64,000 nucleotides of DNA from Parcubacteria group bacterium (GTDB taxonomy: Bacteria; Patescibacteriota; Patescibacteriia; Buchananbacterales; UBA6539), in assembly GCA_002687175.1 (NCBI GenBank), contig NYZP01000001.1, positions 149,607-213,606 on the forward strand. Direction: 5' to 3'. Positions within the stretch are counted from its first letter, which is position 1. Every line of letters begins with the position of its first letter. The notes beneath the pieces were generated by a model. It made no database searches. It had not been told where the DNA came from and saw only the letters and a program-made list of their open reading frames with translations. Below are positions 2,816 to 51,293 of the stretch, one piece after another. Made by a program: the position numbers and the translations under genes.

Positions 2816-3297
2816 CCAAAATCTCTCATCCTGCTCTAAAATTTCTGGGTTTACTTCCTCGCCGACTGAGGATAAGAGAAGCGAATTAGTTGCTAAAGCA
2901 TCATTACCTGTCTGTTGCCAGGCAAAAGTGTAATAATAAAAATTAATAACTTGGTTAATCGCTTCTGGCTTAGCACTGGCAATTACTTTAAAATCTGATC
3001 CTTGGGCACCAGGACCTGGAGATTTAAGATGTCCGGGCTAGCACCGCTAATTTCTTCAACCTTTTGTTGCAATAATACCTGATCATTAACACCATCTTTG
3101 ATAAATGTTGAAAAAATCCGGCCGACTAAAAGTCCTCGACGTTGCAAAGAAATATCAATCGTTTCGTTATAACGATTAATAATAAAAATGGCATTAAAAA
3201 TAATTACTAAAGGAATGAGTATAATTTAAAAAACTCCGTAAATAAGTTGAAACCGTTCATCACCCAGTAAAACTTTTATTTTTGAAGTGATTTTCAT
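1904..3297 (-). pseudogene. Disrupted full-length sensor histidine kinase; the N-terminal TM1 and periplasmic sensor part is broken by an in-frame TAA and a frameshift
   Basis: The minus strand from the ATG at 3295-3297 reads MKITSKIKVLLGDERFQLIYGVF, then TAA, then a TM helix IILIPLVIIFNAIFII and ~60 aa of sensor sequence. Around plus 3030-3045 the frame shifts. The shifted frame continues in-frame into the kinase ORF (..KSPGPGAQGSDFKVIASAKPEAINQV..ERFWLISLPLVD..). Confidence 0.5.
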
Positions 3298-24765: not shown

Positions 24766-25213
24766 AAATTCATTAAATAATACTCGTTAATTATATCAAA
24801 AAACCGCCCATAAGGCGATTTTTCGTACCTCTGAAAGTTCGTTTTTTATGTCTTCATACTCTTGGTATCCCTTCGGGGAGCTACTTTTGTAACCAAAAGT
24901 AGCCAAAAGTTCCGGGGGCCTTTATTCGCCTTATGGGCGGTTTACCTATAGCTCTCTCGCCAGGGGCTCAGAACGGCCCCCGGACCCCCGCCCACAAGAA
25001 CATTACTGTGGTATTAAATCTATAGAGGCAAAATCATTAGCAAAAAACTAATAAATGGGGGTTTGGGGGCGGCGCCTTAGCGCCCCTATAGATACGGCAG
25101 AGGGTTAATCAACGTGATAGCGATTCGCCGCCCCCAAGAGTTTTCTGACCACTTTTGCGGCCAAAAGTGGTCACCGCCGTCAGGCAGAACAATACCACAC
25201 GGGTGACAAAAAT
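24766..25213. other. GC-rich, ORF-free, hairpin-dense block (candidate structured RNA or MITE-like element) of undetermined family; on the minus strand it forms the leader of glpX
   Basis: 18-bp perfect inverted repeat AAACCGCCCATAAGGCGA (24798-24815) with its complement at 24920-24937. 9-bp hairpins CTACTTTTG/CAAAAGTAG and CCACTTTTG/CAAAAGTGG. A UUCG tetraloop hairpin (cccTTCGggg). GGGGCGGCG/CGCCGCCCC long-range pair. CCCCCAAACCCCC on the minus strand. No ORF of 60 aa or more. Confidence 0.4.
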
Positions 25214-25699
25214 TTAAATCTGATCAGCAATAGCAATATCGTACTTTTCCGAAATAATCTGCTGAATTGTTTTGAGGTGCTGCTCACCAACTTCTTCAGT
25301 AATAGCGGTGGCAAAATATTCAGCTAATAGTGGATTACCATGACCTTCTAGAATTTCACCAATGCACTCACCACAAGGATGCCTGCCATCAACAATATCA
25401 ACTAAACAATGACAACTAGCTCCCTCACCATGGCCAGGAGTTTTTTCCAAACAGTAAGTACAAGGTTTCTCTAAACAACAAGCATAATCACCATGGGTCA
25501 TCATTTCTCCCATCATCGAATTCTTCATGGTAATAAAATGCTCTCGATTATGTTCCATATTACCAAAACTGATATCAGCCATCATATGATGTCGGCTACC
25601 GCTGAAACCACCAAAAAAACCAAAGCTAATAACAACTATTACCGCTAAAAGCAAAACCATACTAGAATAAAACGGAAATTTATTATTTAAGTTATTCAT
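25214..25699 (-). CDS. Cys/His/Met-rich secreted or membrane-anchored protein, putative metal binding; start probably MNNLNNK
   Basis: HHMMADISFGNMEHNREH and CCLEKPCTYCLEKTPGHGEGASCHC...CGEC. Confidence 0.35.
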   Translation of the reverse strand: MNNLNNKFPFYSSMVLLLAVIVVISFGFFGGFSGSRHHMMADISFGNMEHNREHFITMKNSMMGEMMTHGDYACCLEKPCTYCLEKTPGHGEGASCHCLVDIVDGRHPCGECIGEILEGHGNPLLAEYFATAITEEVGEQHLKTIQQIISEKYDIAIADQI

Positions 25700-25709
25700 G
25701 TTTTTGAGA

Positions 25710-26192
25710 TTAAAAATTAATTGAATTAGTAACTGCACCATCATGCAGGGCAAAGATCTTAAAATCTCCCCTCTTAATTCCTGGCATGCCTGATGAACCA
25801 GCCGGCATTCCCGGCAAAGCAACAACCTCTAAATCAGGGTTTTGCTCTCTAATCATGGTTACGGCATCCAAAGGAACATGACCTTCAATAGCCACGTCAT
25901 CCATTACCGTAGTATGACAACTTTGCATGTTGTGCGGGATATTATACTTATCTTTAATATCAGCAGTATCGTTAGTAGACACTACCGTGACATCATAACC
26001 ATTTTTCTTAAGATAAGAAATATAGTTAACGCAACAACCACATGACAGCGATTTATAGACAGTTACTTTTGGACCTGTACCGTTAGATATTGGATCGGTT
26101 GAATCACCAGAAAAGACTAGAGCAATAATAACCGCAATCATTGCACCCCCAATGAAACCATACATTAAATTTTTATTAAGAGTATTATTCAT
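25710..26192 (-). CDS. CopG-like CxCC protein (DUF411-like), copper-associated thioredoxin-like fold
   Basis: VYKSLSCGCCVNY...CHTTVMDDVAIEGHVP pattern. N-terminal TM helix. Confidence 0.45.
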   Translation of the reverse strand: MNNTLNKNLMYGFIGGAMIAVIIALVFSGDSTDPISNGTGPKVTVYKSLSCGCCVNYISYLKKNGYDVTVVSTNDTADIKDKYNIPHNMQSCHTTVMDDVAIEGHVPLDAVTMIREQNPDLEVVALPGMPAGSSGMPGIKRGDFKIFALHDGAVTNSINF

Positions 26193-26262
26193 AAAATATT
26201 TTGATTAATCATAACAAAAAAACCTACTCTTAAATTCAAAGAATAAGCTTATTAAATCTTAG

Positions 26263-26670
26263 CTAGTAAATTTTGGGATGAATACTCCCCTGACTAAATA
26301 GAGGGGTTAAATAGACAAACAGTTTAAAATCACCAAACTGTTGATGAATATTTTTAAAATAATTATTGACTGAATTTAAATTTTTATATAAATGCTTAAT
26401 CAGCAGTAAGAATAAAACGCTTACCGATAAACCTAAAATCAAGACATCAGCTGTTGCCAGAACAGTATTTTTGATTACTCCTAAATATTGGGCTTGGCAC
26501 ATGTTCTGATGACCCATCATTAAACAATGAGAATGGGATCCAAAGATTACAAAAATACTGGCATAAAGTAATATACCAACCATGCCAAAAACAAAAGCGG
26601 TCAGTATGGTGGTTCTGCCAATATTTTTTAAATTTTTAATCATATTAATTCTTATAATATTATTATACAA
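26263..26670 (-). CDS. Small polytopic membrane protein with HSHCLMMGHQNMC motif
   Basis: Three hydrophobic helices. Confidence 0.35.
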   Translation of the reverse strand: MYNNIIRINMIKNLKNIGRTTILTAFVFGMVGILLYASIFVIFGSHSHCLMMGHQNMCQAQYLGVIKNTVLATADVLILGLSVSVLFLLLIKHLYKNLNSVNNYFKNIHQQFGDFKLFVYLTPLFSQGSIHPKIY

Positions 26671-26704
26671 CTACATTTAGTAGTAGTCAAATTAAGTGAA
26701 TTTT

Positions 26705-26746
26705 TTAAATTAAAAAATCTCCCTTGTTCATCCTTGAACAAGGGAG
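26705..26746 (-). terminator. Strong intrinsic terminator
   Basis: 12-bp perfect stem CTCCCTTGTTCA-tcc-TGAACAAGGGAG with an adjacent A/T run. Confidence 0.6.
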
Positions 26747-26764
26747 GTGGTACCGCGGCAAGAC

Positions 26765-27421
26765 TTACAAATCTCTGGGTTTGAAACCACCCATGGACGT
26801 TTGTGTCATACTCATGGTTGCGTCTCTGACACCTTGTGGTGTGGCCACTACAGTTACTGCGTGCTCGTCATCCGTTGGAAAACCCATGCCTTTGGCCAGT
26901 TCCTTGGCATCAATACCAATGCCGAAAGTCAAAAGTTCCCAACCCAGTGACTGTGCCTCGGCGGCGATGGCTTGCAGCGCTTCCGGCTGCAAAGATTTAT
27001 CCGATTCATTATCATCGCCGTCGCTGAAAACACCGATCACTACTCTGGTATCATCCCGCAATTCTGTCGGAATTCGCGACCGGTAAAAATTGAGAAGATC
27101 GTTAATGGTCTTATTGACCGTTTCCCAAAGTAGGGTCATGGCATGAGGACGATAGCCCTCAAGCATACCGAAGTCTTCCACTGGCATCAAGGGAATCTTC
27201 ACCTCATTGTCACTGGCGAAAGTGATGACCGCACAAAGATATTGTCGTCCATCATCACATTTCCTTAATGCTTCGTGATGGGCGTCCATCGCTTCCGGCG
27301 GTGTATTTCCATACTCCTCCATCGAGCCTGATTCATCAAGAATCGATACAGCAATAGTGGTCGCCTTCCCAGTGGTAATCTTCGTTTGAGCTGGTACTAT
27401 CGCAAACCCATTTTCGGTCAT
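26765..27421 (-). CDS. von Willebrand factor A (vWA) domain protein of atypical (higher) G+C
   Basis: MIDAS motif ILDESGSM (DxSGS), vWA fold spacing. Likely start MTENGF, preceded by AAAGGAGGG. GC-rich codons. Confidence 0.6.
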   Translation of the reverse strand: MTENGFAIVPAQTKITTGKATTIAVSILDESGSMEEYGNTPPEAMDAHHEALRKCDDGRQYLCAVITFASDNEVKIPLMPVEDFGMLEGYRPHAMTLLWETVNKTINDLLNFYRSRIPTELRDDTRVVIGVFSDGDDNESDKSLQPEALQAIAAEAQSLGWELLTFGIGIDAKELAKGMGFPTDDEHAVTVVATPQGVRDATMSMTQTSMGGFKPRDL

Positions 27422-27587
27422 AATCCAGCCCTCCTTTCTTGTTAGTGAAACCTCCATCAAGAAGTTGACATCAGCAAAATACTGAGCAACTGTTGATGTT
27501 ATACTAATTATTAAATTTTGTCAATACTAAAAACCGCCTTTCCTTGTTAATTCGCCACACCAGTGATTTAACAAGATAAACGGTTTA

Positions 27588-28751
27588 TTACCTAAAAATA
27601 TTTGGATTAATTTTTATAATTTTATCGTCATTAAAACGCATGGTACCCCGACCATCGGTATTAGAAGTAGTTAAGTACATAAATCCGGCATTGTCTAAAA
27701 CCACTGCCCTCAACCGACCAAACTCTTGAAAAAAATGAGAACTAAGTTCACCGCTAGCTAAACTAAATTCATATAAAGCTTCGCCACGTAAACCGGCAAA
27801 AAAGATACTGTCATTCCAAAAAATTGCTCCGGCCGGGGCCCAAGTAACATCTGGACCAGAGTGAATTCGCGGGGAAATCATTTCGACTTCTTCTTCGTCC
27901 CCTTGAACAACCGGCCAACCATAATTCTTACCAGGCTCAATTAAGTTCAATTCATCTAAACCGGAAAGTGCTCCTGATCGGCCATGTTCGGTAATCCATA
28001 GTCGATCAAATCGATCCCAAACTAACCCTTGAGGATTACGGTGACCATAAGAGTAAATCTCTGTACCAAAAGGATTATCTTCAGGCACTGAACCATCAGC
28101 ATTAAGCCGTAAAATTTTACCACCTAAGTAATCTAGATCCTGAGCCTTGTCACTTTGACCGGCATCACCAGTAGTGATATATAATTTATCATCAGGGCCA
28201 AATTCAATTCGACCACCATCATGAAAACGAGCCCCGGGAATATTATCAATAATTATGGTCTTATTTTCTAAACTGTTGCCAACTAATTGATAGCGTTCAA
28301 CTCGATTGATCAAACCATCTTTGGTCTTGGTGGTTAAGTATAAATAGATTAAATTATTATTAACAAAATCAGGATGTAAGGCCAATCCCTGTAAACCACC
28401 TTCACCAACATGCTCTACCCCAGAAATTTTAATCACCGTTCTGTCTTGGCCAATTTTTAATAAATTACCTGGTCGTTCGGTAACTAATAACTCACCAGTT
28501 GGTAAAAAAGTTATCTCCCAAGGTATTTGAAGGTCACTGACAATTATTTCGATATCTTCGGTTTCTGCCATTTCCTCTGAACTGACACCAATGTTGCCAC
28601 TTGGACCAGTTGGTGTAAAAACTTCAACTACAATTTTTTGACGAAAAAAATAAGCACCTGTTAAAATAATGGCCGCCGAAATAATTATAATTAATAAAGC
28701 TTTTTTTCCGCCAGAGGCGGATCCGCCTTTGGCGGACATATTATCTTTCAT
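27588..28751 (-). CDS. Soluble glucose/sorbosone dehydrogenase-like (PQQ-type) beta-propeller protein with N-terminal TM anchor
   Basis: GLQGLALHPDF, NRVERY, HDGGRIEFGPDDKLYITTGDAG, GKILRLNADGS.P.DNPF, YSYGHRNPQGLVWD, ITEHG. Confidence 0.6.
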   Translation of the reverse strand: MKDNMSAKGGSASGGKKALLIIIISAAIILTGAYFFRQKIVVEVFTPTGPSGNIGVSSEEMAETEDIEIIVSDLQIPWEITFLPTGELLVTERPGNLLKIGQDRTVIKISGVEHVGEGGLQGLALHPDFVNNNLIYLYLTTKTKDGLINRVERYQLVGNSLENKTIIIDNIPGARFHDGGRIEFGPDDKLYITTGDAGQSDKAQDLDYLGGKILRLNADGSVPEDNPFGTEIYSYGHRNPQGLVWDRFDRLWITEHGRSGALSGLDELNLIEPGKNYGWPVVQGDEEEVEMISPRIHSGPDVTWAPAGAIFWNDSIFFAGLRGEALYEFSLASGELSSHFFQEFGRLRAVVLDNAGFMYLTTSNTDGRGTMRFNDDKIIKINPNIFR

Positions 28752-28757
28752 AGATCT

Positions 28758-29294
28758 TTATTCAAAAATTACTGGCACTTCAAGCTGATCATCAAGTTCT
28801 CTAAGATCGGAAGGATTATCTTTTTGTAAAATCAACTTTCCTTTACCGAAACCAGGAGAACTAAAGTCAAGCTCTGCCTCAAAAGACACAAAATCTTCTG
28901 TCATCCATTCGCCTTGCGCTGTGGCAATACCAACAGCAATTTGCTCGCCAGCGGCGTTCAATAATCTAACTGGAAAATCTCCTTCAAAAAACCAAACCCC
29001 ACTGGCACTTCCGATAATTTTTAAAGGACTCCTAATAACTTGACTTGGTCGTGGTGATTCAATCCTGATTAAATCCATTTTTTCCAGTTCATTACCAATA
29101 TCCTCGACGAAAATTTGATCACCGGCTCGACATTGCCTAGGGTAACTTTTCATAATAGAATTTCCAGCCGCTACACAATCTTCAAAACTTAAAATTTGGT
29201 CATTATTAGTGACAAGATCATCTTTAACATAATAAAAATAACCAACAATCAAAATTGCTAATGCTAAAATAATTAAAAGAAAATATTTTTTCAT
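28758..29294 (-). CDS. Hypothetical exported/lipoprotein-like protein
   Basis: N-terminal hydrophobic helix. No motif. Confidence 0.35.
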   Translation of the reverse strand: MKKYFLLIILALAILIVGYFYYVKDDLVTNNDQILSFEDCVAAGNSIMKSYPRQCRAGDQIFVEDIGNELEKMDLIRIESPRPSQVIRSPLKIIGSASGVWFFEGDFPVRLLNAAGEQIAVGIATAQGEWMTEDFVSFEAELDFSSPGFGKGKLILQKDNPSDLRELDDQLEVPVIFE

Positions 29295-29540
29295 CTATAA
29301 ATTAAAACCAAATACATAAAATGCTAAAAAAGTATGGATCAATACTGAAACAAAAAAAGCCCACCAATAATAACAATGATACTTATATACTTTCTTAAAC
29401 CATGAGTATCTAAACAACCAAGTTGTAATTTTTTGGCCGGCTAAACAACGGCAAGAAAAAAACACTAACAAAATAAAAATTACGTTAGCAATACCAGCCC
29501 AAAATAATATTTTTACAGCCAGAGCAGTATCAAGCATCAT
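29295..29540 (-). CDS. Small membrane protein
   Basis: 81 aa with two hydrophobic helices. Confidence 0.3.
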   Translation of the reverse strand: MMLDTALAVKILFWAGIANVIFILLVFFSCRCLAGQKITTWLFRYSWFKKVYKYHCYYWWAFFVSVLIHTFLAFYVFGFNL

Positions 29541-29553
29541 TATGATTTAATCA

Positions 29554-30120
29554 CTAGTTAACAATCAAAGTTCCTTCCATGCTACCATGGCCTGAGCCAC
29601 AAAAAACTGAACAGAAAAACCTGAAGCTACCAGATTTATCAGCCACAAACTCAATAGTGGTTATTTCACCAGGATTTAGATCTGAATTAACCCCAAATTC
29701 AGGAATGGCAATGCCGTGTTTTACATCGATACTGTTAATAATCATTTTAACGGTATCGCCTTTATTGACCGTAATAGTTGATGGTACAAAATCCCACTGT
29801 TTGGCTACCATGTCAAAGGTCTTTATGGTTGATACTGGATCATTATCACCGGCAACATCTTCGGGGTCAGGTGGCGGTGGCGGTGCTGTATCAAGATTAG
29901 CATCACCATCGGCTTCGGGATCAGGTGGCGGTGGTGGATTATCAGTTAATGGAAAATCACCGTCTGTTTCGGGATCAGGTGGCGGTGGTACATTGTCGAG
30001 ATTACCAGCTTGATCGCCCCCAGTGCCGGTAGCATCATTATTCGCCGTTCCCTGGTTTAAACAACCACTGATCACCAATCCAGTGATTAATAAGCTGAAA
30101 AGTAAGAAAAATTTTTTCAT
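29554..30120 (-). CDS. Cupredoxin-like lipoprotein with CuA-type ligand motif
   Basis: Lipobox LITGLVISGC, Pro-rich PPPPDPE repeats, C-terminal FFCSVFCGSGHGSMEG (C-x3-C-x3-H-x2-M). Confidence 0.5.
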   Translation of the reverse strand: MKKFFLLFSLLITGLVISGCLNQGTANNDATGTGGDQAGNLDNVPPPPDPETDGDFPLTDNPPPPPDPEADGDANLDTAPPPPPDPEDVAGDNDPVSTIKTFDMVAKQWDFVPSTITVNKGDTVKMIINSIDVKHGIAIPEFGVNSDLNPGEITTIEFVADKSGSFRFFCSVFCGSGHGSMEGTLIVN

Positions 30121-30148: not shown

Positions 30149-30415
30149 TTAAGGTAATGTTTGACGGTCAGCAATTTCAGCTATTACATCACTTTCCGTC
30201 TGGGCTTGCTTACGGGCCATTGTCTCCTCATTAGATAAACGCTCGTCAACAATTGACCTAATATCTTCAACAACATCTCCGTTACCACTACCAATTGCTT
30301 TAGCCAACTCATCAAATTTATCTTCTTCTAGTCTCAAAGCCCCTTTGCTTAAATATGGAAGATTCTTTTTCAAAACCGCTGTTTTGCCTTCGGCAATTAA
30401 TGTGGCCATCATCAT
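30149..30415 (-). CDS. Hypothetical protein
   Basis: 88 aa, overlaps the upstream gene by 4 bp. No motif. Confidence 0.3.
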   Translation of the reverse strand: MMMATLIAEGKTAVLKKNLPYLSKGALRLEEDKFDELAKAIGSGNGDVVEDIRSIVDERLSNEETMARKQAQTESDVIAEIADRQTLP

Positions 30416-31281
30416 AATCCGTTCCTCGGCCTTAGCTCTTTTAGCCCGACGGTCAGAATATTAATCATAAAATCTTGCAGTTTCTTTATTAAGACATCTT
30501 TATCTTTTAACATTTCAGCTTTCATCTCAGCGGGTATGGCTTTAACAAAAACCTCAGCCGCTTCTTGAATGCTGGCCACACCATAATTTAAAACGGGATC
30601 TAAATCTACCGGGACAGTTTCACCATCATCGCCTTTAATCTCAATTTTGCTATGACCAATTTGAACTTTTTTTAATAAGTCATGTACCTCCTCGTCTGGC
30701 TTTGGAGCAATGATCGCAAACTCATCCCCGCCAATACGGTAGGCAACACTTTTAAGTTTATCGTCGCTCACATCTGGTTCCTCTTCGGCAATCACCTCAG
30801 TCATATCATTGGCCATTTCTTCTAAAATTTTATCACCACCACCATGGCCACCACCGAAGTGCTTGGTAATTTCAGGATCTTCATTATACTTACTCAAAAA
30901 ACCTAGATCGATTGAAGTTACTGAAAAATCGATTTTTCCTAAATGTTCTAAATCTTCATCACTTAATGAATCCTGTTCAAGCAATTTTAATAATTTATCA
31001 TCATTATCTAAATGACCCTCTAAATTATCATATAACCTATTAAAAAAGTTACCTCTGTTTTCCAGCCCCGTTAAGGTGTCTCGTTTTAACTTCTCAATCT
31101 GTTCTTTAAGATCTAATACTTCGCCTTCCAATTCTAATTTTTTTCTTTCGGCGGCATTAACTCTTCTTTCTCTGCGTTCATTCTCTGTTTTTGATTCAGC
31201 AAGCTCTTGCTCTAAACGAGCAATCTTTTCCGCATCGCTTTCTTTGTCTGGTGATCCAGATCCACCTTCCGGAGATACCAT
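30412..31281 (-). CDS. GGDEF-domain protein (putative diguanylate cyclase) with N-terminal coiled coil
   Basis: LTGLENRGNFFNRL and RIGGDEFAII. Confidence 0.65.
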   Translation of the reverse strand: MVSPEGGSGSPDKESDAEKIARLEQELAESKTENERRERRVNAAERKKLELEGEVLDLKEQIEKLKRDTLTGLENRGNFFNRLYDNLEGHLDNDDKLLKLLEQDSLSDEDLEHLGKIDFSVTSIDLGFLSKYNEDPEITKHFGGGHGGGDKILEEMANDMTEVIAEEEPDVSDDKLKSVAYRIGGDEFAIIAPKPDEEVHDLLKKVQIGHSKIEIKGDDGETVPVDLDPVLNYGVASIQEAAEVFVKAIPAEMKAEMLKDKDVLIKKLQDFMINILTVGLKELRPRNGL

Positions 31282-31335
31282 AATTTAAGAATTATTTATA
31301 AAAAAGAATGCAAGGGCCGTATAGATCCTTGCATT
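31282..31335 (-). terminator. Intrinsic terminator
   Basis: Minus strand: TGCAAGG-atctatacggc-CCTTGCA followed by TTCTTTTTT. Confidence 0.5.
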
Positions 31336-31674
31336 TTAAGCAGAAGAGGTAGCGGTAGGTGTTTGATTTTCAGAAGTGACAGAAAAAGCAGAGCAGGTTG
31401 ATGTCCAAATTTCATCAAAGTCAATCTGTCGTCCGTCAGTAAGACGGTCTAATTCTTGTTCGTTTGTGACGCCCAGGGCTTTCATCAATAAAGACAACGC
31501 AGAATCCACACCTCGTGGAGACCACCCTCTCTTTAATCCCTCGATTTGCTCCCTTGCGGTAGCGTGTGTTGATGCCTTTTTACTTGCCATCAACCTTGAC
31601 GCCGGGTCCGCACGTGTCGGAAACAGCTCTATGGGTGTAAGTTTTTTTGTAGTATCCATAATAACTGTCTCCAT
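31336..31674 (-). CDS. Small hypothetical protein of atypical (higher) G+C; start METVIMDTTKK
   Basis: Own TTGACA-N17-TATTAT promoter and RBS. GC-rich codons. No motif. Confidence 0.4.
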   Translation of the reverse strand: METVIMDTTKKLTPIELFPTRADPASRLMASKKASTHATAREQIEGLKRGWSPRGVDSALSLLMKALGVTNEQELDRLTDGRQIDFDEIWTSTCSAFSVTSENQTPTATSSA

Positions 31675-31695
31675 TTCCTTCTTGTGCTTAAAAAT

Positions 31696-31724
31696 ATAAT
31701 ACAATGGAGACCTAAAATTGTCAA
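31696..31724 (-). promoter_or_regulatory. Consensus-like sigma70 promoter, TTGACA-N17-TATTAT
   Basis: Minus strand reads ttgacaATTTTAGGTCTCCATTGtattat. Confidence 0.5.
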
Positions 31725-31741
31725 TGAATATTTTACATAAA

Positions 31742-31785
31742 ATAAAAAGCCCCATGTTCTTAATTTTGAACATGGGGGTCGTGAT
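31742..31785 (-). terminator. Intrinsic terminator
   Basis: CCCCCATGTTC-aaaattaa-GAACATGGGG followed by CTTTTTATTTT on the minus strand. Confidence 0.55.
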
Positions 31786-31809
31786 GTTTCTCTGCAATGT
31801 CGCGGAGTG

Positions 31810-32379
31810 TTAGAGTGTGTAAGGAACAGCGCCACCAGTTACGGTGTCAATACGGATCGCCTCCGGTGGTTCAAAGCCAGTGGCTCCGGCTATTGCGACG
31901 ATCTCGTCTTGGTTAACACCGTCACCACTTACGCCAAGGCCACCGACCAATTTTCCATTAATATAGAGCGGAACGCTTCCGGGAAATTCGATGATCCCGT
32001 GCTCGCGGTTACTGTTGCCGATCTGCCACAAATCTCCGTCAGGCTGTGAAAGTAAGCCGATTGAATGGGAGGTTAAGGCATTTTCATCGCTAGAAAAAGC
32101 CATGGCGGTAAAAGCTTTAGATTTGGCAATACTTATGCTGCCAAACCAAGCACCGTCCATTGATCGGTGATCCATTGTCATTTCATCAATGCGAGAGACA
32201 CAGAGTTCCATCCTGCAAGTCTGAGGCTTGCCCTCGGCATCCACGCGCAGTAGCGAAAGAAGACCGTTTGCCGTCGATTCCGCCTGATCTAAGATCTTAT
32301 TGACCATCTGTTCCGACAGAACATTTTCCTTATCTTGACTCGAAACACTGTTGGCCAATGCTGTCAGAGGTAGCACCAC
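31810..32379 (-). CDS. GlcG/HbpS-like DUF336 protein of atypical (higher) G+C, possibly secreted
   Basis: LYINGKLVGGLGVSGDGVNQDEIVAIAG and AKSKAFTAMAFSS patterns. The in-frame upstream extension KKLLLSRKSSIIITFLVVLPLTALA looks like a signal peptide but has no ATG. Confidence 0.5.
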   Translation of the reverse strand: MVLPLTALANSVSSQDKENVLSEQMVNKILDQAESTANGLLSLLRVDAEGKPQTCRMELCVSRIDEMTMDHRSMDGAWFGSISIAKSKAFTAMAFSSDENALTSHSIGLLSQPDGDLWQIGNSNREHGIIEFPGSVPLYINGKLVGGLGVSGDGVNQDEIVAIAGATGFEPPEAIRIDTVTGGAVPYTL

Positions 32380-36476: not shown

Positions 36477-37802
36477 ATGAAAGAGAAAAAACTTAAGGTG
36501 GTGCAGGTATCCACCAACCAACTAAAACCTGCGACTTATAATCCAAGGAAATGGAATCAAAGTGCAATTGATCAGTTAACCGAAAGCGTTAAGCGATTCG
36601 GATTAGTTGATCCAATCATCTGTAATTCCTCTCCTAAACGCCATAACATTGTTATTGGCGGACATTTTCGTTTAAAGGTCGTCAAAGATTTAAAAATCAA
36701 AGAAGTTCCAGTTGTCTATTTAGACATCCCCGACATTAAAAAAGAAAAGGAACTTAACCTCCGTCTTAATAAAAATGTCGGGGAGTTTGATATGGATTTG
36801 TTAGCCAAATTTGATGAGAACTTCCTATCCGACCTTGGTTTCAACAGTGAAGATTTAGATGAGATATTTGAGATTGAAGATAATCCGGAAAAATTTGATC
36901 TCAAAAAAGAGCTAGAAAAACTAGACATCAAAAAAATTGAGATTAAAAAGCAAGATATTTGGAAACTTGGTAATTCAAAATTAATGTGTGGTGATAGCAC
37001 CATAGAAGCTGATGTGTTAAAGCTCATGGCTGGCGAAAAAGCGGTTATGTGCTTTACGGATCCGCCTTATATTTTAGATTATCTTCGTGGGAAAAAGAAA
37101 AATGGTAAGGTGACGGAAGGATTTGGCCTAAAACGAGATCGAAAGTATCTTGAAACTGATGTCCTGCCCGACAATTTCACTGAACTTTGGATGAATAGTA
37201 TTTCTAAAATTCAGAAAAAAGATTTCTCAATTATTATTTTTGAAAATCCTAAAAATCTCCGTACTATTTGGAACGAAATGGAAAAACACTGGAAGTATCG
37301 CAATACTATTGTTTGGCATTTACCAAATCGTGTTCAGGGATTTGCCGCAAAGTATAAATTCTTCAATAAGCACGACATCGCTCTTGTTGGCACCAAAGGC
37401 AAGACGCCAATAAATATTGAACCCGAAGATCCTTTATTTCAAGAAGAATATGAGAATGCATTATTTGCCACCTCGGGTACTCCTACATGGGAATCATATA
37501 AAAAAGGAAAGAAATATTGCCCAACTGATTTCATTGACTATAAAGCCAGCGATGAAAAAAGCTCCGGCCAAGGAATTATCTTTGGTACTAAGCCAATAGA
37601 AATATTAATTCCCTATATCAAAGTTCTCACTAAGAGAGATGATTTAATTGTGGAACCTTTCGGCGGAAGTGGATCAACTCTTATTGCGGCCACAAAAATG
37701 AAACGGAGATGCTATATCATGGAGAAATCCCCTGTCTATGCTGAGGTAATTAAAAAACGTTGGGAAAAACTAACTGGTCAAAAAGCAAGGAGGGTTAAAT
37801 AA
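36477..37802 (+). CDS. ParB-like nuclease domain fused to an N6-adenine/N4-cytosine DNA methyltransferase
   Basis: N-terminal ParB-like domain (..NQLKPATYNPRKW..FGLVDPIIC..IVIGGHFRLKV). MTase motif IV TDPPY and motif I VEPFGGSGST. Confidence 0.75.
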   Translation: MKEKKLKVVQVSTNQLKPATYNPRKWNQSAIDQLTESVKRFGLVDPIICNSSPKRHNIVIGGHFRLKVVKDLKIKEVPVVYLDIPDIKKEKELNLRLNKNVGEFDMDLLAKFDENFLSDLGFNSEDLDEIFEIEDNPEKFDLKKELEKLDIKKIEIKKQDIWKLGNSKLMCGDSTIEADVLKLMAGEKAVMCFTDPPYILDYLRGKKKNGKVTEGFGLKRDRKYLETDVLPDNFTELWMNSISKIQKKDFSIIIFENPKNLRTIWNEMEKHWKYRNTIVWHLPNRVQGFAAKYKFFNKHDIALVGTKGKTPINIEPEDPLFQEEYENALFATSGTPTWESYKKGKKYCPTDFIDYKASDEKSSGQGIIFGTKPIEILIPYIKVLTKRDDLIVEPFGGSGSTLIAATKMKRRCYIMEKSPVYAEVIKKRWEKLTGQKARRVK

Positions 37803-37803
37803 T

Positions 37804-38256
37804 ATGGAAAAAGAAATAAATCCTACAATTCAAAAACGACAGGATAAAAATAAGGGTTTAATTATTGAGCAGTTAAAGAAAACTCCAGTGATTGAAATTG
37901 CTTGTAAAAAAGTTGGTATTGGTCGAGCCACCTATTACAGATGGAAAAAGGATGATATAGATTTCGCCGAAAAAGCAGGGATATCCCTTGAAGATGGACT
38001 GGGCATGATTTCCGATTTGGCTGAATCAAAACTTATTAGCGCTATTCAAGATGAAAATATGACAGCGATAATTTTCTGGCTTAAATCACATCGCAATGCT
38101 TATAGGAACAGGGTTGAACTAAGTACTTCTGAAAAACCAAAAGAAGAACTAACTCCCGAGCAACAACAAGCAGTAGAAAAAGCTCTTACCCTAGGTCAAT
38201 TGACCGACGATCATAAAGAAAATCAAGATGACAAAGATAATATCCCCAACAAATAA
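37804..38256 (+). CDS. Phage terminase small-subunit-like HTH protein
   Basis: IEIACKKVGIGRATYYRWKKDD HTH. It sits immediately upstream of the large-terminase gene, with a 29-bp overlap. Confidence 0.45.
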   Translation: MEKEINPTIQKRQDKNKGLIIEQLKKTPVIEIACKKVGIGRATYYRWKKDDIDFAEKAGISLEDGLGMISDLAESKLISAIQDENMTAIIFWLKSHRNAYRNRVELSTSEKPKEELTPEQQQAVEKALTLGQLTDDHKENQDDKDNIPNK

Positions 38257-39673
38257 TATCCTAGAAAAAATATATAAGGATAGATTAATTAGGTCATCAG
38301 TAACTGAAAAAAGTCATCAGTGGTTTTTTCATATTTATTTTGGCAATTATGTTAAATATCAGACTGCTCCATTCCAGCAAGAGATATTAAAATTAACTGA
38401 GGATCAAACTTTACCCTTGGTAGCTATAATGGCATTTCGTGGATCAGGTAAATCAACAATTGTTACCTGCTCCACGGCCATTTGGTCTGTGCTTGGATCA
38501 CCAAATAAAAAATATGTGGTCATCCTAACTAAAACCCAGCAACAAGCTCGACAACATTTAGCTAATATAAGGTACGAGTTTGAAAATAATGAGTTACTAA
38601 GAAATGATTTTGGCCCATTTGAAGACAAAAATTCTGAGTGGACTTCTTCATCTTTAACTCTGCCAAAATACGGAGCTAAAATCATTGCTGTTAGTGCTGA
38701 GCAAGGAATTCGTGGATTAAGACATAGAGAGTACCGACCAGATCTACTATTGGTGGATGATGTTGAAGATGATCAAAGTGTTAGAAACAAAGACAGCAGA
38801 GACAAAACTTATGATTGGTTTGTGCGAGAAGTAATACCTATTGGCGATGAAAATACCAAAATTATAGTTGTGGGAAATTTACTTCACCGAGATTCACTGA
38901 TGATGAGAATTAAAAATGATATTAGTAAAAAAAATAGAGAAGGAATATTTAAATCCTACCCAATTATAAATGATGATAAATTAATTAGTTGGCCAGCAAA
39001 ATTTCCATCATCAAAAGAAGTGGAAGATCTTAGATTAAAGATTGGTGATGAAAAAGCTTGGAAACAAGAATATGTTTTAAAAATTGTCTATGATGATAGT
39101 AGAGTAATACGACCAGAATGGATTCAGTATTATAATGAAATAAAAGAACATGAAGATAGTCTAAGATACAATGCTATCGGTGTTGATCCAGCTATATCTG
39201 AATCCACTTATGCTGATTACACCGGCATCGTATCAGCTAAGGTTTATGGCAATAGAGAAAATCTGAGGATATATATCCTACCCAATCTAATAAACCAAAA
39301 GATGAATTTCCCAAAATCAGTGGAAACCATAAAAAGCTTATACAAAACCATGAGCCATTGTGAAACCACTAAAGTTTTTGTTGAAAGTGTAGCTATGCAG
39401 GGAGCTGTTGCTCAAGCACTTAATCACGAGGGTATCCCCGCGGAAGAAATTAGAATCAAGGGTGATAAGAGAGCTAGACTAAGTGTATTGGGTGGAAATA
39501 TCCAAAAAGGCCAAATTCTATTTCCCAAAATTGGAGCTGAAGAATTAATAAATCAAATGATTGATTTGGGAACACATGGCCATGATGATTTGGCAGATGC
39601 ATTTAGTTTGTTGTGTAATAAGCTAATAGAAGAAGATGAGAATTTCACTATGCCAGATTTATATATTCTTTGA
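38228..39673 (+). CDS. Phage terminase large subunit
   Basis: Walker A AFRGSGKST, Walker B LLLVDDVED and a C-terminal RNaseH-like nuclease region. Confidence 0.75.
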   Translation: MTKIISPTNNILEKIYKDRLIRSSVTEKSHQWFFHIYFGNYVKYQTAPFQQEILKLTEDQTLPLVAIMAFRGSGKSTIVTCSTAIWSVLGSPNKKYVVILTKTQQQARQHLANIRYEFENNELLRNDFGPFEDKNSEWTSSSLTLPKYGAKIIAVSAEQGIRGLRHREYRPDLLLVDDVEDDQSVRNKDSRDKTYDWFVREVIPIGDENTKIIVVGNLLHRDSLMMRIKNDISKKNREGIFKSYPIINDDKLISWPAKFPSSKEVEDLRLKIGDEKAWKQEYVLKIVYDDSRVIRPEWIQYYNEIKEHEDSLRYNAIGVDPAISESTYADYTGIVSAKVYGNRENLRIYILPNLINQKMNFPKSVETIKSLYKTMSHCETTKVFVESVAMQGAVAQALNHEGIPAEEIRIKGDKRARLSVLGGNIQKGQILFPKIGAEELINQMIDLGTHGHDDLADAFSLLCNKLIEEDENFTMPDLYIL

Positions 39674-42497: not shown

Positions 42498-42522
42498 AAT
42501 TTTTACTAAAATAAGCCATCCG

Positions 42523-42594
42523 CTCCGAGGGCCGGATTCGAACCGGCAACCAATTGATTAACAGTCAACTGCTCTACCATTGAGCTACCTCGGA
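42523..42594 (-). tRNA. tRNA-Asn(GTT), copy A
   Basis: Minus strand reads TCCGAGGTAGCTCAATGGTAGAGCAGTTGACTGTTAATCAATTGGTTGCCGGTTCGAATCCGGCCCTCGGAG. Anticodon loop is CUGUUAA. Confidence 0.85.
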
Positions 42595-42683
42595 GCACAT
42601 GGCTCATTTTTTACTCTATTGCGCTATATTCTAATTTTAAAGTCTTTGACGGAAACCGGTCGGTCAGAAACGCTTCCGGTCTC

Positions 42684-42755
42684 CTCCGGGGGTCGGATTC
42701 GAACCGACAACCAATTGATTAACAGTCAACTGCTCTACCGTTGAGCTACCCCGGA
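42684..42755 (-). tRNA. tRNA-Asn(GTT), copy B (variant stems)
   Basis: Same fold with compensatory changes (CCCCGGA..GTCGG/CCGAC). Confidence 0.8.
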
Positions 42756-42845
42756 GCACATGGCTCATTTTTTTGCTCTACAAACTATATTTTAAATTTT
42801 CAAGCCCCTGACAGGAACCGGTCGCTTTGGAAAGCGTCCGATCTC

Positions 42846-42917
42846 CTCCGAGGGCCGGATTCGAACCGGCAACCAATTGATTAACAGTCAACTGCTCTAC
42901 CATTGAGCTACCTCGGA
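42846..42917 (-). tRNA. tRNA-Asn(GTT), copy C
   Basis: Identical to copy A. Confidence 0.85.
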
Positions 42918-42957
42918 ACTTAATTCTCCTTAATTACTTTTACCTTCTAAACCTTGA

Positions 42958-48524: not shown

Positions 48525-49268
48525 TTAGTTTAACAAACCATCAATAATTGTAGTAAAGGTGGCCAGAGGATAAGCTCCTTTTACTAATTCACTGTTAACG
48601 AAAGTTCCCGGGGTTCCAGTGATTCCAGCTGCTTGAGCTTCGGCTGCTTGACCATTAACTTTACTGGCATACTTATCTGAATCAAGACAGCTATCAAACT
48701 GACTTTGATTTAAACCAAGATTACCAGCGTATGATTTAAGATTAGTGATTTGTAAAGCAGTTTGATTTTCAAACAAGGTATCATGATATTCCCAAAATTG
48801 GCCCTGTTCACCAGCACATTCAGAGGCCTCGGCCGCTTTTTGAGCTTGAGGGTGAATTGAGTTTAAAGGAAAGTGTCGGTAAACCAATCGAACGTCACCT
48901 TCATACTGTTCTAATACTTGTTCAAGGGTTGGGATGTGTCTTTGACAAAATGGACACTGAAAATCAGAGTACTCTATTAACGTTACCGAAGCATCTACAT
49001 TACCTCTAATGTGATCAGCGTCAGTCACTTCAGCCACCTTGGAACTATCTCCAGTAGAAGGCGGGGATGGAGGTGTTGGTGAAGGCGTTGGAGCAGTGTT
49101 AGTACCGGCTACTGAATCACTGGTAGTTCCTGGTTGATTATCGGTTAACATAACTGCTAGAGCAATAACACTAACAATGGCAATACCTCCTACCAAACCC
49201 ATTACCAAACTTTGCTTGGACGACATGTCAAAAAAATCTCGTTCAGACATAAATTTCAAATTAATCAA
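48525..49268 (-). CDS. DsbA-like thiol:disulfide oxidoreductase with N-terminal TM anchor
   Basis: YSDFQCPFCQRH CxxC motif. Confidence 0.65.
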   Translation of the reverse strand: MINLKFMSERDFFDMSSKQSLVMGLVGGIAIVSVIALAVMLTDNQPGTTSDSVAGTNTAPTPSPTPPSPPSTGDSSKVAEVTDADHIRGNVDASVTLIEYSDFQCPFCQRHIPTLEQVLEQYEGDVRLVYRHFPLNSIHPQAQKAAEASECAGEQGQFWEYHDTLFENQTALQITNLKSYAGNLGLNQSQFDSCLDSDKYASKVNGQAAEAQAAGITGTPGTFVNSELVKGAYPLATFTTIIDGLLN

Positions 49269-51168: not shown

Positions 51169-51293
51169 GGGCTTGTAGCTCAGGGGTAGAGCGTCTGAGA
51201 CCAACATTTTAATCAATCAGTGAGGGTACCCGATCTGTGCGATGATGTTGGAAAATCAGAAAGTCAGGGGTTCAAATCCCTTCAGGCCCACCA
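51169..51293 (+). tRNA. tRNA (Ile-like acceptor and T-arm) with a ~50-nt intervening sequence in the anticodon loop; anticodon unresolved
   Basis: GGGCTTG-TA-GCTCAGGGGTAGAGC-G-TCTGA-[57 nt: GACCAACAT...ATGTTGGAAAA]-TCAGA-AAGTC-AGGGGTTCAAATCCCTT-CAGGCCC-A-CCA. The insert has a 7-bp stem CCAACAT/ATGTTGG. Followed by TTTTTT. Confidence 0.55.

What the first reader, a model, noticed from the sequence alone, without database searches (positions are those of the whole stretch)
25214..30120. Copper/redox-flavoured gene cluster in a minimal genome
Consecutive minus-strand genes encode a Cys/His/Met-rich protein, a CopG-like CxCC protein, a His/Cys-motif membrane protein, a GC-rich vWA protein, a PQQ-type glucose/sorbosone dehydrogenase beta-propeller, a lipoprotein, a small membrane protein and a CuA-motif cupredoxin lipoprotein. 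Together this looks like an extracytoplasmic electron-transfer or copper-handling module, which is unexpected in a genome otherwise lacking respiratory genes in this window.
Basis: partly seen in the sequence, partly recalled or inferred. Interest (0 to 1): 0.55.

Follow-up and report, generated by a model that had tools for sequence, protein, structure and literature searches.

The report
Copper-handling and cupredoxin gene modules
A tiny-genome marine bacterium with no respiratory genes in view carries two neighbouring sets of cell-surface copper genes, each pairing a known copper protein with an undescribed partner protein that recurs in other ultra-small bacteria and archaea.

Summary
The eight minus-strand genes exist and the main domain calls hold: CopG/DUF411, PQQ-type sugar dehydrogenase (GSDH) and a cupredoxin lipoprotein with the full CuA ligand set. 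They do not form one conserved module. Spacing and composition suggest three units.

- **H-G-F-E:** CuA cupredoxin, an 81-aa two-helix membrane protein, a Gmad2 protein and GSDH, separated by 13, 0 and 6 nt.
- **D:** a GC-rich, phage-family vWA-like gene, probably foreign.
- **C-B-A:** a membrane protein, CopG and a 161-aa Cys/His/Met-rich protein.

Two gene pairs are conserved elsewhere.

- **CopG with A:** seen in 7 of 7 contexts examined, often with a CsoR or ArsR-type regulator, a copper ATPase or DsbA.
- **G with a cupredoxin:** G is next to or fused to one in 35 of 72 evaluable metagenome loci.

A and G match no Pfam or NCBIfam model and have no solved relative. The CuA cupredoxin family occurs in more than 500 species genomes, mostly Patescibacteria and DPANN archaea. 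No oxidase subunit I was found nearby, though that check was weak.

My best reading is a surface copper-handling unit beside a non-respiratory cupredoxin redox unit. Direction of electron flow, cofactors and copper trafficking are inferred, not shown. Interest is moderate.

The parts
29554..30120 (-). H: lipoprotein with a Pro/Asp-rich linker and a C-terminal CuA-type cupredoxin domain (residues ~99-188)
   Evidence: Pfam COX2 at 1.6e-11 and Cupredoxin_1 at 1.1e-10. PDB Thermus ba3 CuA domain at E 6e-15, with H, C, C, H, M ligands aligned. H135, C170, C174, H178 and M181 are invariant in 27 family members. AF2 domain pLDDT is above 95 over most of the domain; Foldseek rmsd is 1.1 Å to ba3 CuA and 0.9 Å to NosZ CuA.
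29295..29540 (-). G: 81-aa two-helix membrane protein, a cupredoxin-associated family with no Pfam or NCBIfam model
   Evidence: It starts 13 nt after H. No Pfam or NCBIfam hit. In 74 distinct relatives, G16, N19, C30, C32, H55, W59, S65 and H69 are 100% conserved. A cupredoxin is adjacent or fused in 35 of 72 evaluable loci.
28758..29294 (-). F: membrane-anchored Gmad2 Ig-like domain protein
   Evidence: Pfam Gmad2 at E 7.2e-14. N-terminal hydrophobic segment without a lipobox Cys. It abuts G with a 0 nt gap.
27588..28751 (-). E: membrane-anchored PQQ-type soluble aldose/sorbosone dehydrogenase beta-propeller
   Evidence: Pfam GSDH at E 1.5e-77. Near-full-length match to the Pyrobaculum PQQ sugar dehydrogenase 3A9G at E 2.6e-76, with HxGGR and GHRNPQG motifs identical. 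It starts 6 nt after F.
26765..27421 (-). D: cytoplasmic vWA-like protein, probably a foreign phage-family insert and not part of the copper/redox function
   Evidence: VWA at 23.0 bits, below the 23.8 cutoff. GC 0.489 against ~0.36 for the window. PHROG 7371 at E 8.8e-16. About 30% identity to Streptomyces phage hypothetical proteins. No TM segment.
26719..26746 (-). Terminator-like hairpin (12 bp stem plus T-run) after D
   Evidence: Pattern match only; the number of such sites is not above shuffled sequence.
26662..26690 (-). Best promoter-like site of the region (TTGACT-17-TATAAT), in front of C
   Evidence: 11 of 12 matches. Pattern match only.
26263..26643 (-). C: 126-aa two-TM protein with a His/Cys/Met loop, from a small uncharacterised family
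   Evidence: Only 9 representatives among 1.84 billion clusters. Conserved C-terminal YGGFKLF..LFSQGIxHPKIY.
25710..26192 (-). B: membrane-anchored CopG (DUF411) copper protein
25214..25699 (-). A: membrane-anchored protein with a Met/His-rich segment and an 8-Cys core; the conserved partner of CopG
   Evidence: More than 600 clusters, 55-75% identical across Parcubacteria and DPANN archaea, none with a Pfam hit. Eight Cys and three His are invariant. DUF411 lies directly or closely upstream in 7 of 7 contexts.

Best explanation
The interval juxtaposes three units on the chromosome of a marine Parcubacteria (Patescibacteria) MAG. It is not one operon-like machine.

**Unit 1, H-G-F-E: a surface redox unit.** It contains a lipoprotein with a binuclear CuA-type cupredoxin domain and its dedicated two-helix membrane partner G. 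A Gmad2 Ig-like protein and a membrane-anchored PQQ-type aldose dehydrogenase follow. I propose that the cupredoxin is a one-electron carrier held at the membrane by G. I also propose that G links it to the cell, either electronically or by copper hand-over, through two polar clusters. These are C30/C32/H55/C56 at the inner face and N19/S65/H69 in the outer leaflet. In this genome the sugar dehydrogenase is the likely electron donor.

**Unit 2, D: unrelated.** It is a phage-family vWA-like gene acquired from elsewhere.

**Unit 3, C-B-A: surface copper handling.** CopG has a thioredoxin-like fold and a CxCC copper cluster. It works with A, which has a Met/His-rich arm and an 8-Cys core, to bind and redox-convert Cu(I)/Cu(II) outside the membrane. 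That would limit copper toxicity and probably supply copper to the cupredoxin.

**Shown:** domain identities, ligand conservation, export signals, tight gene spacing, and conservation of the H-type/G and CopG/A pairings.
**Inferred:** metal and cofactor content, direction of electron flow, the GSDH-to-cupredoxin step, copper trafficking and transcript boundaries.
For: - **Domain identities:**
- **CuA ligands:** invariant in the family.
- **Export:** seven of the eight proteins have N-terminal or internal hydrophobic segments; D has none.
- **Spacing:** H-G 13 nt, G-F 0 nt, F-E 6 nt; then 166, 121 and 70 nt around D and C by the corrected gene boundaries. A terminator-like and promoter-like pair lies between D and C.
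- **G and cupredoxins:** 33 upstream, 1 convergent and 1 natural fusion among 72 evaluable loci, against 1 non-adjacent cupredoxin among roughly 400 other genes.
- **Topology:** the L157 fusion places the cupredoxin on the outer end of G's first helix.
- **Redox context of G:** other neighbours are DOMON, Fe/Mn-SOD, rubrerythrin, AhpD-like, flavodiiron-like and MsrP-like proteins.
- **CopG with A:** conserved in 7 of 7 contexts, with CsoR in 3, ArsR-type regulators in 2 (one also with a YHS domain), a copper P-type ATPase in 2, and the same cupredoxin family within 6 kb in 2.
- **CopG biochemistry:** as summarised in PMC7558416.
- **No respiratory genes in the window:**
Against: - GSDH, Gmad2 and C are not found near the cupredoxin or G in any of 160 related loci. 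The GSDH-to-cupredoxin link therefore rests on adjacency in this genome alone.
- Only 1 of 80 genome loci with the CuA-type cupredoxin has a G homologue. Most G partners are type-1 cupredoxins.
- The window has no CsoR or copper ATPase.
- Promoter and terminator matches are not more numerous than in shuffled sequence.
- No cofactor evidence exists for G or A. The AF2 model of A is poor, with pLDDT 63 overall and about 50 in the Cys core.
- PQQ synthesis genes were not seen, and only 64 kb of the genome was examined.
Confidence: 0.55

Rival explanations
1. Pure copper-tolerance island. H acts like CopI, a cupredoxin that binds or oxidises Cu(I) outside the membrane. G is a Cu(I) conduit or insertion factor for exported cupredoxins, not an electron relay. 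GSDH and Gmad2 are bystanders.
For: - Cupredoxin-like CopI is implicated in copper tolerance (PMC13308877).
- A cupredoxin-domain gene sits in merR-copA clusters of Alteromonas (PMC8478169).
- The same cupredoxin family lies next to a copper ATPase, cation-efflux gene, DUF411 and A in L090, and near DUF411 and A in another archaeal contig.
- From my own knowledge, G's invariant Cys, Asn, Ser and His resemble the transmembrane Cu(I) sites of P1B ATPases.
- Multicopper oxidases, ZIP and VIT1 transporters are among the cupredoxin's neighbours.
Against: - The ligand set is that of an electron-transfer CuA centre, invariant across the family. H has only two His and lacks the extra His/Met-rich capture regions described for CopI.
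- G also sits beside non-copper redox proteins such as DOMON, Fe-SOD, rubrerythrin and MsrP-like proteins.
- H-G is tightly packed with GSDH, not with CopG.
Confidence: 0.25
2. Extracytoplasmic thiol-oxidation system. In quinone-less Patescibacteria and DPANN, the CuA cupredoxin is the electron sink that re-oxidises DsbA-type oxidoreductases through small membrane partners (DoxX/MauE-like proteins or G).
For: - Immediate neighbours of the cupredoxin in 80 genomes include DoxX (8), MauE (4), DsbA/Thioredoxin_4 (4), DsbD_TM (3) and thioredoxin (3).
- DsbD-DsbA-cupredoxin and DsbH/DsbD-cupredoxin-DoxX arrangements occur.
- DsbA follows CopG and A in several contexts.
- From my own knowledge, MauE, MauD and amicyanin co-occur in methylamine-utilisation clusters.
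Against: - No Dsb gene lies in or next to this interval; the nearest DsbA-like gene is 18 kb away, at 48525-49268.
- Dsb-type neighbours are a minority.
- A cupredoxin carries one electron while thiol-disulfide exchange moves two, and no precedent was found.
Confidence: 0.1
3. One reading: all eight genes form a single co-functional extracytoplasmic electron-transfer or copper module.
For: Same strand, contiguous, and seven of the eight products are exported or membrane-bound.
Against: - The set is not conserved anywhere examined.
- D is compositionally foreign and belongs to a phage protein family.
- Larger gaps and a terminator/promoter-like pair split the run.
Confidence: 0.07
4. H is a decaying remnant of cytochrome oxidase subunit II left after loss of respiration, with no current function.
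For: The best database names are 'cytochrome c oxidase subunit II' and the best Pfam model is COX2.
Against: - All copper ligands are invariant across a family found in more than 500 species genomes.
- It has a lipoprotein architecture instead of the subunit II transmembrane hairpin.
- No subunit I was found in the window or within 10 kb in 80 relatives, the latter by a weak probe test.
Confidence: 0.03

Closest known systems
CuA domain of haem-copper oxidase subunit II and of nitrous-oxide reductase (e.g. Thermus thermophilus ba3, PDB 2CUA; Pseudomonas stutzeri NosZ)
   Same: Same cupredoxin fold: Foldseek rmsd 0.9-1.1 Å over 91-94 columns. Same H..C...C...H..M ligand pattern.
   Different: Stand-alone lipoprotein of 130-190 aa with no transmembrane hairpin. 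No catalytic subunit I or NosZ propeller is nearby. Found mainly in organisms regarded as lacking respiratory chains.
CopG (DUF411) of Gram-negative copper-resistance clusters (PDB 6WIS; reviewed in PMC7558416)
   Same: Sequence match at E 1.6e-21 with the CxCC motif and the Met-containing loop conserved. In relatives it is linked to copper regulators and a copper ATPase.
   Different: Membrane-anchored rather than soluble periplasmic. Always paired with the uncharacterised 8-Cys protein A. This window has no multicopper oxidase, CusCBA or CopA.
CopI-type cupredoxins and cupredoxin-domain genes in copA clusters (PMC13308877, PMC8478169)
   Same: A small exported cupredoxin encoded among copper-homeostasis genes.
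   Different: CopI is described as a cupredoxin-like protein with several His- and Met-rich copper-binding regions (PMC13308877). H has a CuA-type ligand set and no such regions. Homology to CopI was not tested.
PQQ-dependent soluble aldose sugar dehydrogenases (Pyrobaculum aerophilum 3A9G/3A9H, Thermus 2ISM, E. coli YliI 2G8S)
   Same: Near-full-length beta-propeller match with conserved HxGGR and GHRNPQG motifs.
   Different: N-terminal membrane anchor, and encoded in one tight run with a CuA cupredoxin. The physiological electron acceptor is unknown, as it is for most members.
Cupredoxins proposed as electron donors to NirK in Parcubacteria (PMC5581439; PMC12931201)
   Same: Single-domain cupredoxins in Patescibacteria whose membrane electron partner is explicitly unknown.
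   Different: No nirK in this window. H is CuA-type rather than plastocyanin-like. Here a conserved small membrane partner (G) is identified by gene linkage.

Membership tests
CuA-type cupredoxin domain (Pfam COX2 PF00116 / Cupredoxin_1 PF13473) | Profile match above the curated cutoff | tested here: met
   COX2 at 44.6 bits against a cutoff of 22; Cupredoxin_1 at 41.9 against 27.
CuA-type cupredoxin domain | Binuclear-site ligand set: His, Cys, Cys, His, Met | tested here: met
   Aligned to the ba3 CuA ligands. H135, C170, C174, H178 and M181 are invariant in 27 relatives.
CuA-type cupredoxin domain | Greek-key cupredoxin fold | tested here: met
   AF2 domain pLDDT is above 95 over most of the domain. 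Top PDB fold matches are CuA domains at rmsd 0.9-1.1 Å.
CuA-type cupredoxin domain | Actual binding of two copper ions (purple mixed-valence centre) | not testable with these tools
   Needs expression, copper reconstitution and spectroscopy.
Cytochrome c oxidase subunit II (functional respiratory subunit) | N-terminal transmembrane hairpin and a partner subunit I (COX1) | tested here: not met
   H has a lipobox signal (ISGC) and a Pro-rich linker instead of a hairpin. No COX1 in the window. A COX1 probe found nothing within 10 kb in 80 relatives; that test is weak, because the probe came from memory and had no positive control.
CopG / DUF411 | DUF411 profile match, CxCC motif and conserved Met loop | tested here: met
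   63.3 bits against a cutoff of 27. CGCC, SCHT and PGMPAGSSGM align to 6WIS.
CopG / DUF411 | Genomic link to copper export or copper-sensing regulators | tested here: inconclusive
   Met in relatives: CsoR, ArsR-type regulators and a copper ATPase. No such gene was found in this 64 kb window.
CopG / DUF411 | Tetranuclear copper cluster and Cu(I)/Cu(II) redox activity | not testable with these tools
   This is a biochemical property (PMC7558416 summarises the published work).
PQQ-dependent soluble glucose/sorbosone dehydrogenase (GSDH PF07995) | Profile match and full-length similarity to solved PQQ enzymes | tested here: met
   261.6 bits against a cutoff of 25. 3A9G at E 2.6e-76 over residues 67-381.
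PQQ-dependent soluble glucose/sorbosone dehydrogenase | Catalytic His and PQQ-binding Arg/Asn/Gln motifs | tested here: met
   HDGGR and GHRNPQG are conserved against 3A9G and 2ISM. Assigning these motifs to catalysis and PQQ binding rests on my knowledge of sGDH structures.
PQQ-dependent soluble glucose/sorbosone dehydrogenase | Availability of PQQ (pqq genes or uptake) | not tested
   No pqq genes in the window. The rest of the genome was not available.
von Willebrand factor A domain | Profile match above cutoff and a MIDAS DxSxS motif | tested here: inconclusive
   VWA at 23.0 bits against a cutoff of 23.8. DESGS is present in the sequence. No PDB sequence hit. PHROG 7371, unknown function, at E 8.8e-16.
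Gmad2 Ig-like domain | Profile match above cutoff | tested here: met
   52.3 bits against a cutoff of 25.7.

The most novel reading that the evidence does not exclude
The 81-aa G family is a previously undescribed, dedicated membrane partner of exported cupredoxins in organisms without conventional electron-transport chains. It may form a minimal oligomeric transmembrane relay. It has a Cys3-His cluster at the inner face. Two invariant histidines lie 14 residues apart on one helix face, which from my own knowledge is the spacing seen in di-haem cytochrome b helices. Such a relay could pass electrons, or Cu(I), between the cytoplasm and the surface cupredoxin. This would be a candidate for the 'unknown means' by which Patescibacteria and DPANN cupredoxins are connected to metabolism (PMC5581439, PMC12931201). 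Alongside it, protein A would be a new obligate copper-binding partner of CopG.
Probability: 0.3. Interest if true: 0.75.

Novelty: new variant of a known kind. Interest (0 to 1): 0.55.

Why it matters
Patescibacteria and DPANN archaea are usually described as fermenters without electron-transport chains. Yet hundreds of their genomes keep a cupredoxin with an intact CuA electron-transfer site. Published work on cupredoxins in these bacteria states that the membrane link feeding them is unknown.

This locus, with its relatives, gives two testable leads:
- a tiny, strongly conserved membrane protein genetically coupled to cupredoxins and once fused to one;
- a widespread 8-Cys protein that always travels with CopG.

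Either could reveal how ultra-small cells handle copper and surface redox chemistry, including oxygen and ROS defence, without respiration.

Tried and rejected
- **One conserved eight-gene cluster:** rejected. Searching window proteins A-H and four upstream genes against ORFs of 80 genome loci around the cupredoxin and 80 metagenome loci around G found no C, D, E or F homologues.
- **Respiratory subunit II:** rejected on architecture and lack of COX1.
- **D as a defence gene:** no PADLOC hit.
- **Structure of A:** the AF2 model was too poor for a fold search, with pLDDT 63 and a Cys core near 50.
- **Solved relatives of A and G:** profile searches against PDB sequences found nothing.
- **The 81-aa gene after DsbA in CsoR-CopG-A-DsbA operons:** checked as a possible G homologue; it is a different small membrane protein.
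- **First alignment for the genome scan:** A narrower one worked.
- **Rfam:** no known RNA family in the GC-rich intergenic region next to A.
- **Literature:** searches for cupredoxin with Patescibacteria and DPANN together returned nothing.

Full report
**Source and setting**

The window is part of a 242-kb TARA Oceans scaffold. Its proteins are deposited as 'MAG: Parcubacteria group bacterium', locus tags CMI53_.... The window has about 36% GC.

Pfam scans of the ORFs of at least 100 aa (apart from ORFs overlapping a longer one) show housekeeping genes. These include UvrABC, DnaG, RpoD, LigA, GlnA, class II aldolase, GlpX, type IV pilus parts, a thioredoxin-reductase-like gene and a DsbA-like gene. 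There is no oxidase, cytochrome, NADH dehydrogenase, ATP synthase or nirK.

**The observation**

Eight consecutive minus-strand ORFs are present. With boundaries corrected from the contig's gene calls they are:

| Gene | Coordinates | Size | Identity |
|---|---|---|---|
| A | 25214-25699 | 161 aa | 8 Cys, 10 His, 10 Met; one N-terminal TM; no Pfam/NCBIfam hit |
| B | 25710-26192 | 160 aa | DUF411/CopG |
| C | 26263-26643 | 126 aa | two TM segments, HSHCLMMGHQNMC loop |
| D | 26765-27421 | 218 aa | vWA-like |
| E | 27588-28751 | 387 aa | GSDH |
| F | 28758-29294 | 178 aa | Gmad2 |
| G | 29295-29540 | 81 aa | two TM segments |
| H | 29554-30120 | 188 aa | cupredoxin lipoprotein |

- DUF411 at E 1.7e-17.
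- GSDH at E 1.5e-77.
- COX2 at 1.6e-11 and Cupredoxin_1 at 1.1e-10.
- Gmad2 at 7e-14.
- VWA falls just below its cutoff, at 23.0 against 23.8 bits.

B aligns to the solved CopG structure 6WIS at E 1.6e-21, with CxCC, SCHT and the Met-containing PGMPxGSxGM loop conserved. E aligns over nearly its full length to the Pyrobaculum PQQ sugar dehydrogenase 3A9G at E 2.6e-76, with the HxGGR and GHRNPQG motifs intact.

One detail is wrong. F has an N-terminal hydrophobic anchor but no lipobox cysteine, so it is not a lipoprotein. Seven of the eight proteins have hydrophobic export or anchor segments; D has none.

**The cupredoxin (H)**

H has a lipobox (ISGC) and a Pro/Asp-rich linker with three PPPPDPExDGD-like repeats. 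A roughly 90-residue domain follows.
- The domain aligns to the Thermus ba3 CuA domain with every copper ligand in place.
- In 27 relatives, H135, C170, C174, H178 and M181 are invariant.
- H contains exactly two histidines, both ligands. It has three cysteines: two ligands plus the lipobox Cys.
- The AF2 model has pLDDT above 95 over most of the domain.
- Its best PDB fold matches are CuA domains of ba3 oxidase (rmsd 1.1 Å over 91 columns) and of nitrous-oxide reductase (0.9 Å over 94).

It is therefore a CuA-type cupredoxin. It is not a cytochrome oxidase subunit II in the functional sense. It lacks the transmembrane hairpin, and the window has no subunit I. A COX1 probe found nothing within 10 kb in 80 relatives. 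That last test is weak, because the probe was written from memory and had no positive control.

The family is common. About 100 clusters of 110-165 aa proteins were found. More than 516 hits occurred in species-representative genomes. The best 80 are dominated by Woesearchaeota, Nanoarchaeota, Micrarchaeota, Aenigmatarchaeota and Patescibacteria, with some Omnitrophota and Acidobacteriota.

**Is the eight-gene run one module?**

No. I searched A-H and four upstream genes against ORFs of the 80 genome loci (±10 kb around the cupredoxin).
- C, D, E and F never appeared.
- G appeared once.
- A and B together appeared clearly once, in L049.

Within the window the spacing is uneven. H-G-F-E are separated by 13, 0 and 6 nt. 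The gaps around D and C are 166, 121 and 70 nt, by the corrected gene boundaries.

D is a compositional outlier, with GC 0.489 and GC3 0.484 against 0.23-0.33 for its neighbours. It matches a phage protein family of unknown function, PHROG 7371, at E 8.8e-16. It is about 30% identical to Streptomyces phage hypothetical proteins. A promoter-like site precedes it, and a 12-bp hairpin with a T-run follows it. Directly after that hairpin comes the best promoter-like site of the region, in front of C. These are pattern matches whose overall counts do not exceed shuffled sequence, so they are suggestive only.

I read the interval as three units: H-G-F-E, D, and C-B-A.

**The CopG-A pair**

A belongs to a large family without any Pfam model. 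It has more than 600 clusters, 55-75% identical between Parcubacteria, Woesearchaeota and Diapherotrites. Eight cysteines and three histidines are invariant in the consensus YxCCLEKPCxYCIEKTPGHGEGAxCxC..D...G.HPCGECIGEI.EGHG.

In all seven genomic contexts I examined, a DUF411 gene lies directly upstream, or two genes upstream. The surroundings are copper- and thiol-related:
- a CsoR-type repressor directly upstream in three;
- an ArsR-type regulator in two, one of them also carrying a YHS domain;
- a copper P-type ATPase in two;
- DsbA adjacent or nearby in five;
- the same COX2-type cupredoxin family within 6 kb in two.

CopG is described as a thioredoxin-fold periplasmic protein with a CxCC-bound tetranuclear copper cluster. 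It is proposed to oxidise Cu(I) and pass copper to cuproproteins (PMC7558416). The C-B-A unit is therefore best read as extracytoplasmic copper handling, with A as CopG's conserved partner.

C belongs to a very small family of 9 representatives. It has a conserved C-terminal motif and occupies the position where relatives carry the regulator. The AF2 model of A was too poor to use, which fits a fold that depends on bound metal. Profile searches found no solved relative.

**The cupredoxin-G pair**

G has no Pfam or NCBIfam match and only six close clusters by word-indexed search. One homologue sits, overlapping by 8 nt, directly after the same cupredoxin family in a marine DPANN archaeon.

A pattern scan of metagenome contigs confirmed 156 relatives. 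In 74 distinct sequences, 38-64% identical to G, conservation is as follows:
- 100%: G16, N19, C30, C32, H55, W59, S65, H69.
- At least 94%: L25, S29, R31, G35, C56, F62, V66.

Of 72 loci with enough upstream sequence:
- 33 have a cupredoxin immediately upstream on the same strand, with a median gap of 22 nt;
- one has it convergent and adjacent;
- one (L157, 2698-3408) is a single 236-aa ORF with a signal sequence, a type-1 cupredoxin and the G module.

Only one further cupredoxin occurs among the roughly 400 other genes of these loci. Pfam confirms this: 31 of 70 distinct upstream proteins hit Cupredoxin_1 and 29 hit Copper-bind. DOMON (5) and Fe/Mn-SOD (3) come next. The partners are mostly type-1-like (24) and sometimes CuA-type (4).

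Downstream neighbours include rubrerythrin (6 of 26), AhpD-like CMD (3), pyruvate:ferredoxin oxidoreductase (2), an MsrP-like molybdoenzyme and a flavodiiron-like protein.

The fusion and the positive-inside rule both give an N-out topology. That places C30, C32, H55 and C56 together at the cytoplasmic face. N19, S65 and H69 then sit at a common depth in the outer leaflet, beneath the cupredoxin.

**Mechanism**

*Shown.* A CuA-type cupredoxin lipoprotein is encoded in one tight run with a small conserved membrane protein, an Ig-like protein and a PQQ-type sugar dehydrogenase. All of them are exported or membrane-anchored. The cupredoxin-G linkage is conserved and is once a fusion.

*Inferred.* The cupredoxin is a one-electron carrier held at the membrane. 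G couples it to the cell. In this genome the dehydrogenase is the electron donor; from my own knowledge, PQQ and TTQ dehydrogenases are known to use cupredoxins such as azurin and amicyanin. CopG and A control copper speciation and probably metallate H.

For G itself two readings remain open.
- **Electron relay.** Its neighbours include non-copper redox proteins. H55 and H69 lie 14 residues apart on one helix face, as in di-haem cytochrome b helices (from my own knowledge). Cytochrome b559 is a precedent for inter-subunit bis-His haem in tiny membrane peptides (from my own knowledge).
- **Cu(I) hand-over factor.** Its dominant partner is always a copper protein. Its invariant Cys, Asn, Ser and His resemble transmembrane Cu(I) sites of P1B ATPases (from my own knowledge).

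I put about 0.4 on the relay and 0.3 on copper hand-over, conditional on G being a true functional partner.

**Neighbours of the CuA cupredoxin elsewhere**

Immediate neighbours in 80 genomes are heterogeneous:

| Neighbour family | Count |
|---|---|
| DoxX | 8 |
| VIT1 | 6 |
| DsbA/Thioredoxin_4 | 4 |
| RnfD-like | 4 |
| MauE | 4 |
| ZIP | 3 |
| Multicopper oxidase | 3 |
| DsbD_TM | 3 |

The individual contexts examined add DsbH/DsbD, glutaredoxin, thioredoxin reductase, rubrerythrin, desulfoferrodoxin and Ni-SOD. This supports a surface redox, metal or oxidative-stress role rather than respiration. It also keeps a thiol-oxidation hypothesis alive as a minority rival.

**Comparison with the literature**

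Cupredoxins in Parcubacteria have been noted as possible electron donors to NirK, fed 'by an unknown means' (PMC5581439). [quoted passage not shown] CopI shows that cupredoxin-like proteins can serve copper tolerance (PMC13308877). A cupredoxin-domain gene is part of merR-copA clusters in Alteromonas (PMC8478169).

I found no description of the G or A families. The literature search was limited, and both lack Pfam and NCBIfam models.

**Verdict**

- **Observation:** confirmed, with small corrections.
- **Interpretation:** partly supported.
- **Novelty:** a new variant of known copper and cupredoxin systems. It contains two conserved but uncharacterised partner families whose linkage patterns are the most useful result.
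- **Interest:** moderate, at 0.55. It would be higher if G proves to be the missing membrane link for cupredoxins in organisms without electron-transport chains.

Noticed in passing
window 24770-25212 (minus strand): The 448-nt GC-rich spacer between gene A and glpX folds far better than shuffled sequence (MFE -167.8 kcal/mol, z -5.7). It has nested perfect inverted repeats (18 nt at 24801-24818 / 24926-24943; 12 nt at 25063-25074 / 25126-25137) and ends in a terminator-like hairpin just before glpX. No Rfam family matches, so it may be an undescribed structured RNA.
   Followed up: partly
window 36477-39673 (plus strand): A phage-like block lies on the opposite strand to its neighbours: a ParB_N/N6_N4 methyltransferase, a small HTH protein and a terminase-like large-subunit gene. 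GC skew changes sign here. It is probably a prophage remnant.
   Followed up: no
window 42522-42918 (minus strand): Three tandem tRNA-Asn(GTT) genes spaced about 161 nt apart, unusual redundancy for a small genome.
   Followed up: no
window 51169-51290 (plus strand): Rfam reports a tRNA match spanning 122 nt (53.7 bits) that ARAGORN does not call, next to tRNA-Lys(CTT). It may be an intron- or insert-containing tRNA.
   Followed up: no
window 30149-32379 (minus strand): Directly upstream of the cupredoxin, and only 28 nt from it, lies an 88-aa gene overlapping a coiled-coil protein with a weak, partial GGDEF match. A 112-aa ORF and an HbpS-like (haem-degrading/binding family) protein follow. 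They may be co-transcribed with H-G-F-E.
   Followed up: partly
L157 2698-3408: A natural fusion in one 236-aa ORF: signal sequence, type-1 cupredoxin domain and the G-family two-helix module. This is a Rosetta-stone link between the two families and fixes G's N-out topology.
   Followed up: yes
L049 1578-3688 and L090 2533-4529: In two DPANN archaeal loci, two extra conserved genes sit between DUF411 and the A homologue. One is a ~176-180 aa membrane protein starting with an HCPLCT motif; the other is a ~167-199 aa soluble protein. This suggests a larger four-gene version of the CopG-A unit.
   Followed up: no
L153 (DOMON gene 1418-2071, G-family gene 2107-2358, Mo-oxidoreductase gene 2394-3074): A G-family gene sits between a DOMON-domain protein and a molybdopterin oxidoreductase (MsrP/YedY-like). 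From my own knowledge, this arrangement is reminiscent of the haem membrane partner MsrQ.
   Followed up: partly
window 29860-30060 (within gene H): The cupredoxin's linker holds three Pro/Asp-rich repeats (PPPPDPExDGD-like) that most homologues lack, and this may contribute to the gene's higher GC (0.43).
   Followed up: no
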